Shown here: positions 27,801-33,800 of the stretch, piece after piece | How positions within the stretch are numbered: the stretch's first letter is position 1 | How the letters are laid out: each line of letters opens with the position of its first letter | Assembly (NCBI RefSeq): GCF_054482525.1 | Contig: NZ_CM137006.1 | Direction: 5' to 3' (one strand) | Length of the DNA stretch: 64,000 bases | Made by a program: the position numbers

Positions 27801-30800
27801 AGAAAGTTTGTTTGCGCGACCGTATTTTTCTCCGTCCTTATCTGCGAAGAGGAAATAGAACGGCCCCTCACGCTCTACAGATGGTTCAGCTTCCGGCGCG
27901 GTTTCATTTTTTGGGATATCAGATACCTCAGTTTCCACTGCATCAGTTTGTGTTTCTGATGACTGGAGAACATCAACAGTGCCCTGGTCTGTTTCTTCAT
28001 TCTCAAACACGCCCTTTGTCGTCAGGTATTCGCAGATATATTTGTTCAGTGCTACGGGATCTTTGTGAATGTCGATCGGACGCTCACGGACAAGGCCAAA
28101 AATAGTTTGGCGGTCGTAGCGAAGGGCATCAGGCTGTTTGCGCATTGATGCCGAGATACGCTTCCAGTCTTCGCGGTCGTTGTCGATAACTTCTTTTTTT
28201 GCCCAGCGATGGATGCTGCCGTCAATGTTTCCGGCATCCACATCACCAGGCCAGAGAGCGTAGGCCAGTTCGTCATCCAGTGTTTTCCATGTCTGCTTGT
28301 ATTCGCGATGAATGGCAGCAATGACCGGGCTGATTTTTCCTGTTGAATTTTCAGTGTACTGTTGATTGGCTCTGGCGCGGGCGAGATCAACAACAGACGT
28401 GTATTTTCCGGTTTCCTTGCGTTCACCTTCGCGACGTTTTTTCCAGATGCGCATCTCTGCCTGAATTTCGGGCCATTTAGCACCAGGAATACATTTATGC
28501 TTAACCCACCCAATGGCGTGCAACTTAAGCTCCGGATACATGGCGTTAACTTCTGGCATTTTCATCAACGCTTCAACGATATGTCCGTCGAATGTTGCCA
28601 TGTCTTCCTGCAACAATTCCTGTGCGCTAATAACCATATCAACGGTGATGTTTTCACATGTGTCGAACTTAACCATGACAGCGTTCTGTACTTCAGGGGC
28701 CAGCTTGTCAAAAGTGACGTTCATCGGATCGGATTCAGTCTCAACCGGGACAAAAGAAGCAGACTCCTCATCCCAGCGGTTTTCCTGCATATATTCAGCA
28801 TCCCATGAATCGAGGGCAGGGCGGGGTATGCCAGGTTTATCCTCGCAGACAATAAATTTATAAGCGCAGTCCTGAGCAGCCGGATAATGTTCCAGGAACT
28901 GCCAGTGAAATTTTGCTCGAGCACGGCGTTCGTCGCCAGCTTCAATGGCTGTGGCTACAGCCACAGTGCCTTCTTCCCTTGTTGCCAGTTCGTCAGGAAT
29001 AGCGGCGCAAATAAAGACTTTACTCATTTTGTTTTAACCTCATGACAGATTTAAGGATGAACAAATCCCTGCCATTGCTGGCATATAAGAATGAAACCGG
29101 ATATTTATTACGGAACTGTTTTAAAGACCTGCCGGGATTTCGTTATTATCCTGGTGAATAACTTTATCGACCGGATAACAGTTGCCTGGAATTTTCTGTT
29201 CGGTTGCTGCTGCCATACATTCCTGCATTGTTCTGTGAACACTGACTGCAATATCAACTGGCTCTCCGGAAACAAGAAAAACCGTCAGAATAAGTGCAAA
29301 TACTGGATTCATTGTGCACATCCTTTTGGCATCAAACGTAAACGGGCCAGCATTGAAACAATGCATACTTTATTTAATAACTCCCGTTCGTGTTTTCTTT
29401 TGTTAATGGCATCTTCAGTAAATACAGGATTACTGATAGTGACACCAATTTCAAAACAACCTTCAGACGTATTAACGTTTGGTAATAACGTTTTCATTAT
29501 CGCGCCCTCAACAATGAGTTTTGTGATGCGGTGCCTGGTGCCTCCAGGTGACGTTAACCAGTTAACAATTAACGCCGGATACAGAGAATCCACCCATAAC
29601 ACTGTTTTTGGTTTTAACTGTTCCGCGTGCGCTTAGCCGCATTCACCGCATCACAAAATTCACTTTAAAAAGGGCGGCAGAGCAGTCACGGAGTAAAACT
29701 GATACCGCCAAACGTCACCAGAAAATTGATAACAGAGGGCGTTGCAGCGGGGTTGTCACTTAAGCGTATGGTCAACCTGACAACCCGGTGTCCTCAACGG
29801 GGAAGGAATAACCCCGCCATACTTACCGCCGCGCCATTTCGCGTAGTGCCACAACCGGAAGCGCACGGTCGACGAAAATTTAACGACAGGCTATCTATGA
29901 ACCAGCTACCTCGCCGTGCGCTTTCGCGTTATGGTCTGACTTTTCATGGAAATATCCTTTCAGTAAACTGTCAGTGCCGGATGCTCACCCGTGTCCGGCG
30001 CACGCACTCCACCTCACCCGTGGAGAACGCCTTAATTACCAACCTTAGCTTCGTTGGTTAGCTATTAACGCTGGTATGTAATCATTCTGGCAATGCTTAA
30101 TGCCGCTGCTTTTTCCAGCCTGGTGATATCCTGCTCCAGAGCGGACAGATTTTCAGCCTGCTTAGCCCTGGCTTCATTGGCCCATTTCAGATCCTGCGCT
30201 GCATTAATTTTCTGGCGCATCCACTCATAAAGTTCATCATCGGTATAGTCTGGCGCGATGATGACGGGTTCTCGTTTCTGCATACTGATTCCTCGCGGTG
30301 CTGCTTCGCTTATCAGCCGTTAGATTTTGCCGAGCTGGAAAGCGCCTGTTTAAACTCACTGAAGCTGAGAGCTTCTTCGCCTTCGGTAAGGCCTTCGAAG
30401 TATTCTTCGTAAGCCTTTTTCATGATTGTGTCGAAATCCATATCACTCACCTGAGTTTCTTTCCAGCCAGCGACGGGCACCATTTTCGGTTTTAAACGTT
30501 TTGCTTTTGGTATACGTCATCGCGGTGAATGTGCCGTCCTGGTTGGGAAACACGCCGTACACCAGAGATTCGTTGTTGCCAAGATCGATAGTATCCATGT
30601 TGACCTCATTTCCCCTTAACGCCGGGGTAGCGGAACAAAAACCTGCTGCATAGTTATTAAAGTTGAACCCTGCCGTCATGTTCTTACGCCTCGGGCTGGC
30701 TACTTAACCCCTGACCACTGCCTGGTAACTCGAAGTATTGCCCGGCGTTCTATGGGGCGGGGTGGGTTGGTATGCAATAAATCTAAAAGTATTTAGTTTT

Positions 30801-33800
30801 ATAGTCAAGGGGAATCTAAATTAATTTAAAAAAAGGTCGGCATAACCGACCTTAAGTTCAAGGACATAGCAGGGTTATAGGTTGAACTGCACACCTTTTG
30901 CTACGGCAACAATTTTACACTCTGGCGTAAGCAAGGATGATTGATAGCGCGGATTGAGAGGGCTTAAATACACAAGTTTTCCATCAATAACTAATTTTTT
31001 TATAGTCATAGACGGTTCATTTGTAAGTGGATCTGGAACTATTACAGCGACGATACTGCCATTTTTATAACTCTCTCCTGGTCTTAGGATCACAGTGGCA
31101 CCAACCGGGATACTTGGTGACCCTGAGGGGTTATGCATAGTGTCATCAGGCATTGAAACGGCAAAATCACCTTCCACTACATCAAAGAATGTGGTGATCC
31201 TATCGACATTTCCCATTGTTTTCTCTCCTTCTAAGATTAGGAAAGAAATCGCGTCACCCCACGAAAAGTAGGGGATCTTGGTGCCTGGATTGCTCTGCAC
31301 AAAAGATAGTTCAGGAGACGATACTCCATACAGGAGATAGGACTCAGTAGTTCCTAATGCCTGGGCTAACTTACTTAGAGCTTTGCTGCCGGGTTCGTTT
31401 AGATCTTTCTCCCAGTACCCTATAGTAACCCCAGTCACGCCTGAAAGCTTACCCAGTTCTACTTGGGTGAGTCCCTTATCTTTTCTGAGTTTCTTAAGCC
31501 TGATGCCAAGGCTTTCCATCATTTTCTCCCGCGAGTTGAATATAAATTATTTTAGATTGCATTGACCTAAAAAAAATTATCCTGTAATCTAAAAATACTT
31601 AGATTTTAGGAGAGTAAAATGCGAGTTGATGAACTTGTTCAGTTTTTTGGCTCTGTTCAGAGGGTCGCTGATTTTTATGGGATAACCCGCGAAGCTATTT
31701 ACATGTGGCGTAAGCGCCCCGGTGAAATAGTTCCGAAAGGGAGAGCTGCGGAAGCTGCTGCATACTCCAAGGGAAAATTATCTTTGAACCCAGAGCTTTA
31801 CAAAAAGAAGGATACCACCCGGGACAAAAGGAAGAGTGATTCATGAAAATCAAACATGAACATATCCGCATGGCGATGAATGCCTGGGCGCATCCGGACG
31901 GCGAAAAAGTACCGGCTGCGAAAATTACCAAAGCGTATTTCGAGCTGGGAATGACGTTCCCGGAACTGTATGACGACAGCCATCCGGAAGCCCTAGCTCG
32001 CAATACTCAGAAAATTTTCCGCTGGGTGGAGAAAGACACCCCTGATGCGGTTAAAAAAATTCAGGCGTTGTTACCAGCTATCGAAAAAGCAATGCCACCT
32101 CTGCTGGTGGCCCGAATGCGCAGTCATAGCTCAGCCTATTTTCGGGAACTAGTGGAGACGCGGGAACGACTGGTGAGAGACGCTGATGATTTTGTCGCAG
32201 TGGCGATCGCTGGTTTCAACCAGATGAATCGTGGTGGCCCTGCAGGAAATATTGTGGCTGTGCATTGACTCGCAATATTCATACCGGATCACTTCCGGCA
32301 ATTTGTGAGTAAAAAGATTCGGTATCAAAAGAGGTGAGTATGGCTAACGCCTGGCTCAGATTATGGCATGACATGCCAAATGACCCTAAGTGGCGAACAA
32401 TTGCCAGGGTGTCAGGGCAGCCAATTGCAACAGTGATGGCAGTGTATATCCACCTCCTGGTGAGCGCGTCACGAAATGTCACGCGAGGTCACATTGATGT
32501 CACGACAGAAGATTTGGCAAGTGCGCTCGACGTGACAGAAGAGGTAATTGATTCAATTTTGCAGACGATGCAGGGGCGGGTACTTGATGGTGATTTAATC
32601 ACTGGATGGGAAAAACGCCAGGTGCTTAAAGAGGACAACGGCAATATTTCGCAAACCGCAAAATCTCCTGCAGAGCGCAAGAGGGCGCAGCGAGAGAGGG
32701 AAAGAAAGCGGGAACAAAATGGCGATTGTCACGGCGCGTCACGAAATGTCACGCACATGTCACGACGAGTCACGACAGATAAAGATACAGATAAAGATAC
32801 AGATCAAGAAGATCAAAACACTATGGTCCATGGCGTAAAAAACGCCACGAACCAGGCAGGGGATGTTCAGACCGTCAATCCTGGTCAGCCAGCAGGCACG
32901 ACACCGGAAGCCGATTCAGCGTATGCGCTGAAAGCCGATTCGGGCGCTGTGCAGCAGGTGATGACCGCAAGGCCGGAGCAATCACACCAACTGCAGCAGC
33001 CTGAAGCCGATTCCGCCATTCAGCGGGAAGCCGATCGGGTAGTCCCGGAAAGCACCGGGCAGTCTGTGGGACGAGTGGATTATCCGGATGTGTTCGAACA
33101 GGTCTGGCGGGAGTACCCGTTGCGTGCTGGGGCAAACCCGAAGAAATCCGCTTTCAGTGCTTGGAAGGCCAGATTACGCGAGGGGGTGCCACCAGAGGCC
33201 ATGCTGGATGGCGTGAGGCGTTACGCAAGATACTTGGCGGCTACCGGGAAAACGGGAACGGAATTTGTTCAGCGAGCGACGACGTTTTTTGGACCGGATC
33301 GGAATTTTGAGAACCCCTGGTTGCTCCCGGTAAGCGGCACGAACAACCAGCGTTGTGTGAATCATATTTCTGAACCGGATAACGAAATTCCGCCGGGCTT
33401 CAGGGGGTAAGTGTTAATTTCTGGTCATGAGGTAATTTTCAGGAGGGCTTGTGGCAAAAGTTTTTACACAAGAAGAGCGGGAAAAAATTAAAGGGCAGGT
33501 TGTTGAACTTGTACGTCTGAGCGGTCGCGAGACGTTGCGGCAACTGGAAGCCAGGACAGGTGCGACAAGATATCTGATGAGTGTTCTCGCCAGAGAGCTG
33601 GTTGCCAGTGGCGATGTATACAACTCTGGTTACGGGTTATTCCCGTCTGAACAGGCGCGTAAGGACTGGCAAAATGCTCGCAAAAAACTCTCAAGGGCAA
33701 AGGTGAAGAAACCTGCAGTGGTTGATCCGGACCTTATCTGGTCGTTACCAGACGGCGAAATACGCCGCTACGACAGGCGCCTGAATATAATCTGTCGCGA

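What the first reader, a model, noticed from the sequence alone, without database searches (positions are those of the whole stretch)
30781..31610. Immunity region with repeated ATCTAA/TTAGAT operator half-sites at both OL-like and OR-like positions
The cI-like gene is flanked by copies of a near-palindromic motif (atctaaaaatacttagat at 31587-31604 overlapping the cro promoter -10; atctaaaagtatttagtt at 30781-30798). A ttgacc-17-taatct promoter faces cro, and a hairpin with a U-run terminates cI. This is a complete lambda-style switch, and its operator sequence defines the immunity group of the prophage.
Basis: partly seen in the sequence, partly recalled or inferred. Interest (0 to 1): 0.35.

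Follow-up and report, generated by a model that had tools for sequence, protein, structure and literature searches.

The report
P22-type prophage immunity switch operators
The repeated ATCTAA/TTAGAT motifs are real and are very probably the repressor-binding operators of an ordinary P22/lambda-type lysogeny switch in an E. coli prophage, though the repressor itself lacks the usual self-cleavage residues.

Summary
All four matches (2 or fewer mismatches) to ATCTAA-N6-TTAGAT in the 64 kb window flank the cI-like gene: two downstream (30781, 30814) and two upstream (31540, 31587). A weak fifth site lies at 31565.

They overlap a conserved rightward promoter (TTGACC-17-TAATCT) and a leftward one (TTGACT-17-TAGATT). 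The 65-bp right operator block is far more conserved than synonymous codon positions. The same sites recur at fixed positions next to repressors of 42-100% identity in Escherichia, Salmonella, Yersinia, Sodalis and Symbiopectobacterium.

Homology with other phages breaks at 30767 and 31837. So operators, repressor and cro form one exchangeable immunity cassette, present in 473 of 5,426 E. coli genomes, including O157:H7.

The layout matches phage P22's right operator closely, and P22 c2 is the closest solved homologue. This is a new, uncharacterised member of a known kind.

- The hexamer is shared across the family, so it does not by itself define one immunity group.
- The repressor clade has Thr in place of the catalytic Ser and no Ala-Gly site, so the induction arm may not be lambda-like.

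No binding has been shown.

The parts
30768..31836 (.). Exchangeable immunity cassette: PL/OL, cI terminator, cI, OR/PR/PRM and cro
   Evidence: Homology to phages Tritos and vB_EcoS-640R1 (different repressors) ends at 30764-30767 and resumes at 31837-31838. All 473 E. coli genomes that match carry at least 80% of the cassette; there are no partial hits.
30781..30798 (.). OL1 operator, ATCTAAAAGTATTTAGTT. It covers the spacer and -10 of PL.
   Evidence: 1 mismatch to the palindrome; matrix rank 4 of 64k. A strong site sits at the same position in L011, L012, L014, L017, L018, mEp460 and the IMG/VR loci. The right half TATTTAGTTTT is invariant in 7 E. coli variants.
30780..30808 (-). PL-type leftward promoter: TTGACT (30808-30803), 17 bp, TAGATT (30785-30780). 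It drives the ydfA-ydfB-ydfC-dicF-dicB operon.
   Evidence: Promoter scan. The -35 AGTCAA is invariant in the alignment.
30814..30831 (.). OL2 operator (weaker), ATCTAAATTAATTTAAAA. Its right half doubles as the U-tract of the cI terminator.
   Evidence: 2 mismatches; matrix rank 3. A second site lies 33-35 bp from OL1 in relatives. However, position 6 (A to G) varies in the O157-type cassettes, so confidence is lower.
30833..30853 (-). Intrinsic terminator of cI
   Evidence: 9-bp stem, 5 GC pairs, T-run. Folds at -14.1 kcal/mol, z = -3.5.
30875..31522 (-). cI/c2-like repressor, 215 aa (RefSeq start at 31519, 214 aa): HTH_3 N-terminal domain plus S24-fold C-terminal domain
   Evidence: Pfam HTH_3 E = 1.5e-12 and Peptidase_S24 E = 1.5e-10. 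32% identical to P22 c2 over 206 aa. The P22 c2 N-terminal domain is the best PDB hit.
31540..31557 (.). OR3 operator, ATATAAATTATTTTAGAT, nearest to cI. It probably overlaps the -10 of the maintenance promoter.
   Evidence: 1 mismatch; matrix rank 1. Invariant in 7 E. coli variants. Found 24-26 bp from the cI ATG in the loci (37 bp in L074).
31549..31554 (-). Candidate PRM -10 (TAAAAT on the minus strand). Inferred, not mapped.
   Evidence: It occupies the same position within OR3 as the annotated P22 PRM -10. The hexamer is kept in the closer relatives. An alternative is TATATT at 31543-31538. The -35 is poor in either case.
31562..31590 (+). PR-type promoter for cro: TTGACC (31562-31567), 17 bp, TAATCT (31585-31590)
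   Evidence: Sequence. The same hexamer positions read TAATAT or TATAAT in relatives. The -35 is invariant.
31565..31582 (.). OR2 candidate (weak), ACCTAAAAAAAATTATCC. It starts at the 4th base of the PR -35, as P22 OR2 does.
   Evidence: 4 mismatches; matrix rank 14 of 64k. The homologous position is a strong site in L011 (ATCTAAAATAAATTAGCT) and L074. Against: the A-run length varies between variants.
31587..31604 (.). OR1 operator, ATCTAAAAATACTTAGAT (perfect arms). It overlaps the PR -10 and the transcription start.
   Evidence: 0 mismatches; matrix rank 2. Found 70-76 bp from the cI ATG in the loci (86 bp in L074).
31619..31846 (+). cro-like gene (75 aa)
   Evidence: Pfam P22_Cro E = 1.2e-9. 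24% identity to P22 Cro, E = 6e-6. A P22_Cro-family gene sits at this position in the relatives with called genes and aligns with the window cro.
31836..31853 (.). Possible YdaT (cII-equivalent) box, GTGATTCATGAAAATCAA, at the cro/ydaT junction
   Evidence: 1 mismatch to TTGATT-N6-AATCAA. The count in the window is not above chance. The location matches operator OM at the end of ydaS in CP-933P (PMC9986795).
31843..32268 (+). ydaT-family gene (cII functional equivalent), outside the cassette
   Evidence: Pfam YdaT_toxin E = 1.1e-9. The function of the family is taken from PMC8630535 and PMC9986795.

Best explanation
This is the immunity (lysis/lysogeny) region of an apparently intact lambdoid E. 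coli prophage, built on the phage P22 plan. Binding, site order, cooperativity and PRM mapping are all inferred, not shown.

Proposed mechanism: a dimeric c2/cI-type repressor (HTH_3 DNA-binding domain plus S24-fold oligomerisation domain) recognises 18-bp pseudo-palindromes with consensus A-T/A-C/A-T-A-A ... T-T-A-G-A/T-T.

At OR there are three sites:
- OR1 (31587-31604) overlaps the PR -10 and the start site.
- Weak OR2 (31565-31582) overlaps the PR -35 and spacer.
- OR3 (31540-31557) overlaps the presumed cI maintenance promoter.

At OL, two sites (30781-30798 and 30814-30831) bracket the -35 of a leftward promoter.

Occupying OR1/OR2 and OL1/OL2 would shut off cro/ydaT/replication rightward and the ydfABC-dicF-dicB-exo operon leftward. 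By analogy with P22 and lambda, repressor at OR2 would stimulate PRM, OR3 would give negative autoregulation, and the P22_Cro-family protein would use the same sites in the reverse order.

The operators, repressor and cro travel together as one exchangeable cassette (30768-31836).
For: Gene content: cI (HTH_3 plus S24), cro (P22_Cro) and ydaT.

Site distribution:
- All four motif matches with 2 or fewer mismatches in 64 kb flank cI.
- Local shuffles give P about 1e-4 to 3.5e-4 per intergenic region.
- A matrix trained only on relatives ranks them 1-4 of 64k positions.

Conservation: the block 31540-31604 has 6 of 65 variable columns among 7 cassette variants diverged to 85%. Third codon positions of cI and cro vary at 37-48%, and the adjacent 5'UTRs at 35-57%.

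Relatives: in 25 distinct OR variants next to repressors of 42-100% identity, every hit with 2 or fewer mismatches in each roughly 3-kb locus lies in the OR or OL zone, at near-constant distances.

Promoters: the -10 and -35 hexamers overlap the sites and are conserved, reading TATAAT in some relatives.

Mosaic boundaries: breaks at 30767 and 31837 place both operator sets inside the immunity cassette, and other cassettes carry different repeats at the same places.

P22 comparison: the annotated P22 OR1-3 have the same 18-bp, 6+6+6 format and the same spacing relative to TTGAC(T/C). Centre-to-centre distances are 25/23 in P22 and 25/22 here. P22 c2 is the closest solved homologue.

Activity: near-identical cassettes occur in records deposited as phages, vB_EcoS-689R5 and vB_EcoM-606R7.
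Against: - There is no binding, footprint or reporter data for this repressor, and I found no paper on it.
- OL as a whole is not more conserved than neutral sites (28 of 65 variable columns).
- OL2 has an A-to-G change at an otherwise invariant position in the O157-type cassettes, and its right half is also the terminator U-tract.
- OR2 has only one good half-site, and its central A-run varies in length between variants.
- PRM is not mapped and its -35 is poor.
- The sites in relatives used for the matrix were picked by similarity to the window pattern, which introduces some circularity.
Confidence: 0.85

Rival explanations
1. The conserved repeats are only promoter architecture (-10-like TAGATT/TAATCT/TAAAAT hexamers and AT-rich UP-like tracts) shared by PL, PR and PRM. 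On this view they are not protein operators, and their dyad symmetry is incidental.
For: Each half-site plus its neighbouring base contains a -10-like hexamer. The regions have 26-45% GC. The bare hexamer ATCTAA is not enriched in the window.
Against: - The 18-bp dyads with fixed 6-bp spacers recur 4-5 times, at fixed offsets, across repressors of 42-100% identity.
- Composition-matched shuffles rarely produce them.
- Both arms of each dyad are conserved, including the arm that is not part of any hexamer.
- The format matches the experimentally defined P22 operators as annotated in NC_002371.
- Cassettes with other repressors carry other repeats at the same places.
Confidence: 0.05
2. The sites are bound mainly by a different protein than the cI-like repressor. 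Candidates are the Cro-family protein alone, YdaT, or a host nucleoid protein such as IHF, Fis or H-NS acting on AT-rich DNA.
For: Cro is encoded in the same cassette and always co-inherited. The regions are AT-rich. YdaT is adjacent.
Against: - The published YdaT target is TTGATT-N6-AATCAA, which is a different motif. A match to it lies elsewhere, at 31836.
- The ydaT gene lies outside the cassette while the sites lie inside it.
- A host factor would not explain why other cassettes carry other repeats at the same positions.
- In P22, lambda and CP-933P, repressor and Cro share the same operators (PMC8630535). Cro binding would therefore complement repressor binding rather than replace it.
Confidence: 0.05
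3. The region is a decaying remnant of a switch in a cryptic prophage, and the repeats are no longer functional.
For: Many E. coli prophages with dicB operons (Qin, Rac) are cryptic (PMC10448788). The repressor has lost the canonical self-cleavage residues.
Against: - The operator block is under strong purifying selection, and dN is much lower than dS in cI and cro.
- The window carries integrase, exonuclease, replication genes, Q, and large rightward ORFs running on to 63.5 kb whose structural functions were not checked here.
- 99-100% identical cassettes occur in records deposited as phages.
Confidence: 0.05

Closest known systems
Phage P22 immunity region (c2 repressor, cro, OR1-3 / OL1-3, PR, PRM, PL)
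   Same: - The repressor has the same length and two-domain plan (215 against 216 aa, 32% identity). The P22 c2 N-terminal domain is the best solved homologue.
- cro belongs to the P22_Cro Pfam family.
- Operators are 18 bp with 6-bp arms and a 6-bp centre.
- OR3 is followed by 4 bp and then TTGAC(T/C), OR2 begins at the 4th base of the -35, and centre-to-centre spacings are 25/23 (P22) against 25/22 here.
- OL1 overlaps the PL -10.
   Different: - The half-site is ATCTAA(A) rather than P22's ATTTAA(G).
- The recognition helix reads TGVTIGYW rather than SNVAISQW.
- OL has two sites rather than three.
- cI has a 17-bp leader with a Shine-Dalgarno sequence, whereas the P22 PRM start lies 3-4 nt from the ATG.
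- The cII equivalent is YdaT, not C1.
- The left operon is ydfABC-dicF-dicB, not gene 24 (N-like).
- The Ala-Gly site and catalytic Ser are absent.
Phage lambda genetic switch (cI, cro, OR1-3, OL1-3)
   Same: - Divergent cI and cro genes.
- A tripartite OR overlapping PR and PRM.
- A second operator set at PL.
- An S24-fold C-terminal domain that matches lambda cI C-terminal-domain structures.
- An exchangeable 'imm' cassette.
   Different: - Only 24% identity.
- 18-bp operators here against lambda's 17-bp operators (from my own knowledge), with an unrelated sequence.
- No rexAB and no N.
- OL and OR are about 0.8 kb apart here rather than about 2.4 kb in lambda (from my own knowledge).
- No canonical cleavage residues.
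CP-933P switch of E. coli O157:H7 (PaaR2 / YdaS / YdaT; PMC8630535, PMC9986795)
   Same: - The gene order repressor, then cro-like, then ydaT.
- 18-bp palindromic operators at OR, with a second set at a PL-type promoter.
- A YdaT box at the end of the cro-like gene.
   Different: - The repressor is different: the papers read here describe PaaR2 only as CI-like.
- The operator consensus there is GTTTAGTAA, with four repeats.
- There is no paaA2-parE2 toxin-antitoxin pair here.
Qin prophage DicA/DicC immunity locus controlling dicBp (PMC10448788)
   Same: The left operon (ydfA-ydfB-ydfC-dicF-dicB-ydfD) is controlled from the promoter immediately downstream of the repressor gene.
   Different: DicA is a 135-aa protein with no C-terminal domain and is inactivated by the antirepressor Rem. 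The repressor here is full length and carries a different cassette. No antirepressor or LexA box turned up, but only a subset of the window's ORFs was scanned for one.
Phage mEp460-type repressors (about 42% identity)
   Same: They use the same operator consensus and layout: ATCTAATAAAACTTAGTT, TACTAAGTAATCTTAGTT and ATCTAACTTAACTTAGTT. The ...VGYWEKD recognition-helix end is conserved.
   Different: They keep the canonical VQAG scissile site and the GDSM catalytic serine, and they lack the 6-8-residue insertion before the KKL motif.

Membership tests
Lambdoid (P22/lambda-type) immunity region | Divergently transcribed repressor and cro genes separated by a short regulatory region | tested here: met
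   cI lies at 30875-31522 (-) and cro at 31619-31846 (+), with a 96-bp spacer.
Lambdoid (P22/lambda-type) immunity region | Two-domain repressor: N-terminal HTH plus C-terminal LexA/S24-fold domain | tested here: met
   HTH_3 E = 1.5e-12 and Peptidase_S24 E = 1.5e-10. PDB hits to the P22 c2 N-terminal domain and the lambda cI C-terminal domain.
Lambdoid (P22/lambda-type) immunity region | Multiple similar dyad-symmetric operators overlapping PR/PRM (OR), plus a second set at PL (OL) | tested here: met
   OR3, OR2 (weak) and OR1, together with OL1 and OL2. Positions are conserved in relatives.
Lambdoid (P22/lambda-type) immunity region | Repressor and Cro physically bind these operators and set immunity | not testable with these tools
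   This needs EMSA, footprinting or immunity tests. No publication was found.
Lambdoid (P22/lambda-type) immunity region | The immunity module is exchangeable as a unit (imm cassette) | tested here: met
   Homology breaks at 30767 and 31837 against phages with other repressors. All 473 genomes that match carry the whole cassette.
Lambdoid (P22/lambda-type) immunity region | RecA-stimulated self-cleavage signature: Ala-Gly bond, catalytic Ser and Lys | tested here: not met
   Ala-Gly is replaced by Ala-Ile and Ser by Thr (DDTM); Lys is kept. The same holds in all 10 clade members of 49-100% identity, while the 40-45% sister clade and P22 c2 are canonical.
Lambdoid (P22/lambda-type) immunity region | cII-type establishment activator with a target near the cro/cII junction | tested here: inconclusive
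   A YdaT-family gene is present. A box with 1 mismatch lies at 31836-31853, the same position as OM in CP-933P. However, the motif count in the window is at chance level.
Qin DicA/DicC-type locus | Short (about 135 aa) repressor with no C-terminal domain, inactivated by an antirepressor | tested here: not met
   The repressor is 215 aa and has an S24-fold C-terminal domain. The ORFs that were scanned gave no antirepressor family hit; many window ORFs were not scanned.
Qin DicA/DicC-type locus | The PL-equivalent promoter drives ydfABC-dicF-dicB | tested here: met
   DUF1391 (ydfA); DicF RNA at 29672-29723; DicB and DUF1482; annotation of the near-identical phage.
CP-933P PaaR2/YdaS/YdaT switch | PaaR2-type repressor with GTTTAGTAA-type repeats and an adjacent paaA2-parE2 pair | tested here: not met
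   The operator consensus is different. No toxin-antitoxin genes lie between cI and OL.
Gifsy-type antirepressor-controlled prophage | LexA-controlled antirepressor gene outside the immunity region | tested here: inconclusive
   There is no exact CTGT-N8-ACAG box and no near-consensus SOS box in the 64 kb window. Hits with 1 mismatch are at chance level. The prophage may extend beyond the window.

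The most novel reading that the evidence does not exclude
The repressor belongs to a clade of full-length c2/cI-type proteins (49-100% identity; Escherichia, Salmonella, Yersinia, Sodalis, Symbiopectobacterium). This clade keeps the S24 fold and the catalytic Lys but has replaced the nucleophilic Ser with Thr and lost the Ala-Gly scissile bond.

If these proteins are truly non-self-cleaving, then lysogeny of a prophage type found in about 9% of complete E. coli genomes, including O157:H7, is held by a 'pseudo-protease' repressor. Its induction signal would be neither lambda-like RecA-mediated cleavage nor the known route for short DicA/Gifsy-type repressors. 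It could be an unidentified antirepressor or some other trigger.

A second open possibility follows from the shared operator consensus: repressors only 42% identical may cross-regulate one another's prophages.
Probability: 0.35. Interest if true: 0.5.

Novelty: new member of a known kind. Interest (0 to 1): 0.25.

Why it matters
In itself this is a textbook-style immunity region, so it matters mainly for annotation. It assigns operators, three promoters, a terminator and cassette boundaries to a repressor type present in 473 of 5,426 complete E. coli genomes, including O157:H7 EDL933. RefSeq labels that protein only as 'LexA family' or 'helix-turn-helix' protein.

The left operator controls a dicF/dicB cell-division-inhibitor operon. 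The state of this switch could therefore affect host physiology.

Two points deserve experiments:
- Does a Thr-for-Ser, Ala-Gly-less S24 repressor still respond to SOS?
- Do family members that share one operator consensus cross-immunise?

Tried and rejected
- **Window-wide enrichment.** The 18-mer count (4 against 1.8 expected) and the bare hexamer count (15 against 23) are not significant on their own. I replaced these with local shuffles, clustering and cross-species tests.
- **A third OL site.** The matrix scan shows nothing above 8 bits near OL other than OL1 and OL2.
- **Sites with 3 mismatches at 33842-33964.** The best scores 10.2 bits inside or just after the DUF977 gene, with no dyad quality. 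I treated them as chance.
- **An SOS box or antirepressor that would explain induction.** None was found.
- **Identity with the characterised CP-933P switch.** Rejected: the O157 copy of this cassette sits in a different prophage, with a different repressor and different repeats.
- **Literature.** I searched for this operator, for mEp460 operators and for the deposited phages (ON4705xx accessions). Nothing relevant turned up.
- **The Salmonella relative L010.** It lacks an OL at the expected place because the DNA downstream of cI is rearranged, so it was used for OR only.

Full report
**What is in the sequence**

Searching ATCTAA-N6-TTAGAT over the whole 64 kb with up to two mismatches returns only four matches. 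All four sit beside the cI-like gene: 30781 and 30814 downstream of it, 31540 and 31587 upstream.

The window-wide count is not significant (4 against 1.8 expected), and the bare hexamer is not enriched. The clustering, however, is significant. In 20,000 composition-preserving shuffles of each AT-rich intergenic region, two such sites arise with P about 3.5e-4 (right) and about 1e-4 (left).

A fifth, weaker site is ACCTAAAAAAAATTATCC at 31565-31582, with 4 mismatches. It lies between the two right-hand sites.

**The genes**

- 30875-31522 (-) encodes a 215-aa protein with an HTH_3 domain and a Peptidase_S24 domain.
- 31619-31846 (+) encodes a P22_Cro-family protein.
- 31843-32268 (+) encodes a YdaT-family protein, the functional equivalent of cII (PMC8630535, PMC9986795).
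- To the left of cI lie ydfA (DUF1391), ydfB, ydfC, DicF RNA (29672-29723), dicB, a DUF1482 gene and an 823-aa ORF (26556-29027) matching the gene annotated as exodeoxyribonuclease VIII/exonuclease in near-identical records. This is the Qin-type left operon.
- The window also holds an integrase next to a tRNA, replication genes, Q, and large rightward ORFs running on to 63.5 kb that I did not scan. The element therefore looks like a whole prophage.

**Promoters and terminator**

- The promoter scan finds TTGACT-17-TAGATT on the minus strand (30808-30780). OL1 covers its spacer and -10, and OL2 lies just upstream of its -35.
- The rightward TTGACC(31562)-17-TAATCT(31590) falls below the scan's threshold. 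In relatives the same hexamer position reads TAATAT or the consensus TATAAT.
- The cI terminator (30853-30833) has a 9-bp stem and a U-run. It folds at -14.1 kcal/mol, z = -3.5.

**Conservation within E. coli**

The 1,069-bp segment is present, always whole, in 473 of 5,426 complete E. coli genomes. Identity ranges from 85% to 100%, and the set includes O157:H7 EDL933 at 92%. It also occurs in two records deposited as phages.

I compared seven variants. The block from OR3 to OR1 (31540-31604) has 6 variable columns out of 65. Third codon positions of cI and cro vary at 37-48%, and the two flanking 5'UTRs at 35-57%. The non-coding operator block is thus about as constrained as first and second codon positions.

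OL is less uniform, with 28 of 65 columns variable. Its invariant parts are the right arm of OL1 and the PL -35. OL2 carries an A-to-G change at a normally invariant position in the O157-type variants.

**Conservation across genera**

Repressor homologues of 66-68% identity (Salmonella and an unassigned contig) and of 49-53% identity (Yersinia, Symbiopectobacterium, Sodalis and others) have the same layout:

- A site 24-26 bp from the cI ATG.
- A middle site starting inside TTGAC/T.
- A third site over the PR -10.
- Two sites 33-35 bp apart bracketing a leftward -35 just after the cI terminator.

In L011 and L074 the middle site is strong (ATCTAAAATAAATTAGCT and ATCTAAATGAAATTAGGA). This supports OR2 as a real third operator that has become weak in the window's lineage.

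A scan of IMG/VR gave 80 loci. In all 25 distinct OR variants examined, every motif hit with 2 or fewer mismatches in the roughly 3-kb locus falls in the OR or OL zone.

A weight matrix built only from sites in relatives ranks the window's four sites 1-4 of about 64,000 positions and OR2 14th. The relatives' sites were chosen by resemblance to the window motif, so this test is not fully independent.

**Cassette boundaries**

Phages Tritos and vB_EcoS-640R1 share the flanks at 95-98% identity. They lose all similarity between 30764-30767 and 31837-31838. In that interval they carry different repressors, and different repeats at the equivalent places. Both operator sets, cI and cro are therefore one exchangeable immunity module, the classical 'imm' region.

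**Comparison with known systems**

The closest solved homologue is the P22 c2 N-terminal domain. The full proteins are 32% identical.

The annotated P22 OR has the same plan:

- 18-bp operators with 6-bp arms.
- OR3 followed by 4 bp and then TTGACT.
- OR2 starting at the fourth base of the -35.
- Centre-to-centre distances of 25 and 23 bp, against 25 and 22 here.

The half-site differs (ATTTAAG in P22, ATCTAAA here), as does the recognition helix (SNVAISQW against TGVTIGYW).

By position, the P22 PRM -10 corresponds to TAAAAT at 31554-31549 here. This is an inference, and TATATT at 31543-31538 is an alternative.

The CP-933P switch of O157 (PaaR2/YdaS/YdaT) has the same gene order but a different repressor and different repeats. 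The YdaT box published for CP-933P has a one-mismatch counterpart at 31836-31853, in the same place at the end of cro. That motif's count in the window is at chance level.

1. There are five sites, not two.
2. The hexamer does not define one immunity group. The same consensus flanks repressors down to 42% identity, including phage mEp460. All of these share the ...VGYWEKD end of the recognition helix. Whether these phages are hetero-immune, and through which positions, is unknown.
3. The switch may not be 'complete' in the lambda sense. In three independent alignments, the lambda/P22 Ala-Gly bond aligns with Ala-Ile (Ala-Met or Ala-Thr in relatives). The catalytic Ser aligns with Thr in a conserved DDTM motif. 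The Lys is kept.
   - All ten clade members of 49-100% identity share this pattern, together with a 6-8-residue insertion.
   - The 40-45% sister clade and P22 c2 are canonical.
   - I found no SOS box, and no antirepressor among the ORFs I scanned.

**Verdict**

This is an ordinary P22-type immunity region, not previously characterised as far as the searchable literature shows. The operator assignment rests on strong comparative evidence but no biochemistry. It is a new member of a known kind. The altered peptidase motifs are the only unusual feature.

Noticed in passing
window 30875-31522 (-), residues about 88-92 and 125-129: The cI-like repressor has the S24 fold, but Thr replaces the catalytic Ser (DDTM in place of GDSM) and Ala-Ile replaces the Ala-Gly scissile bond. 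The catalytic Lys is kept. The whole 49-100% identity clade shares this pattern plus a 6-8-residue insertion, while the 40-45% sister clade and P22 c2 are canonical.
   Followed up: partly
window 31836-31853: The inverted repeat GTGATTCATGAAAATCAA has one mismatch to the published YdaT operator TTGATT-N6-AATCAA. It spans the cro stop and ydaT start, the same location as operator OM in CP-933P, and sits right at the right-hand cassette boundary.
   Followed up: partly
window 29672-29723 (-) and 29309-29602 (-): DicF sRNA (Rfam 76.7 bits) and dicB lie in the leftward operon. The OL/PL described here therefore controls cell-division inhibitors, as in prophage Qin.
   Followed up: partly
window 31570-31577, compared with loci L040, L044 and L048: The A-run in the centre of the weak OR2 site varies in length by one base either way between otherwise near-identical cassettes. 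This changes the OR3-to-OR1 distance to 46-48 bp.
   Followed up: no
window 30814-30853: The right arm of OL2 (TTTAAAA) is at the same time the U-tract of the cI intrinsic terminator. The same overlap is seen in relative L011.
   Followed up: no
window 34784-34958 (+) and 34896-35108 (+): A hok/sok-type toxin-antitoxin pair sits in the nin region: sok RNA (Rfam 110 bits) and a MokW-like host-killing peptide ORF.
   Followed up: no
window 34030-34716 (+): A QueH (epoxyqueuosine reductase) homologue (Pfam E = 1e-65) is encoded within the prophage early-right region. This is an unexpected tRNA-modification gene for that location.
   Followed up: no
window 38523-38829 (+): A cluster of four tRNA genes lies just downstream of the Q antiterminator gene (37633-38328).
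   Followed up: no
window 24063-26294: The probable left end of the prophage: a tRNA at 25127-25213 lies next to the integrase gene (25269-26294, -). Host genes lie beyond it, namely a Peptidase_M90/MtfA-like gene at 24236-25072 and a 2,895-aa ORF at 15135-23822.
   Followed up: no
E. coli collection: Three of the 475 copies of the cassette lie on plasmids, and two records carry two copies each.
   Followed up: no
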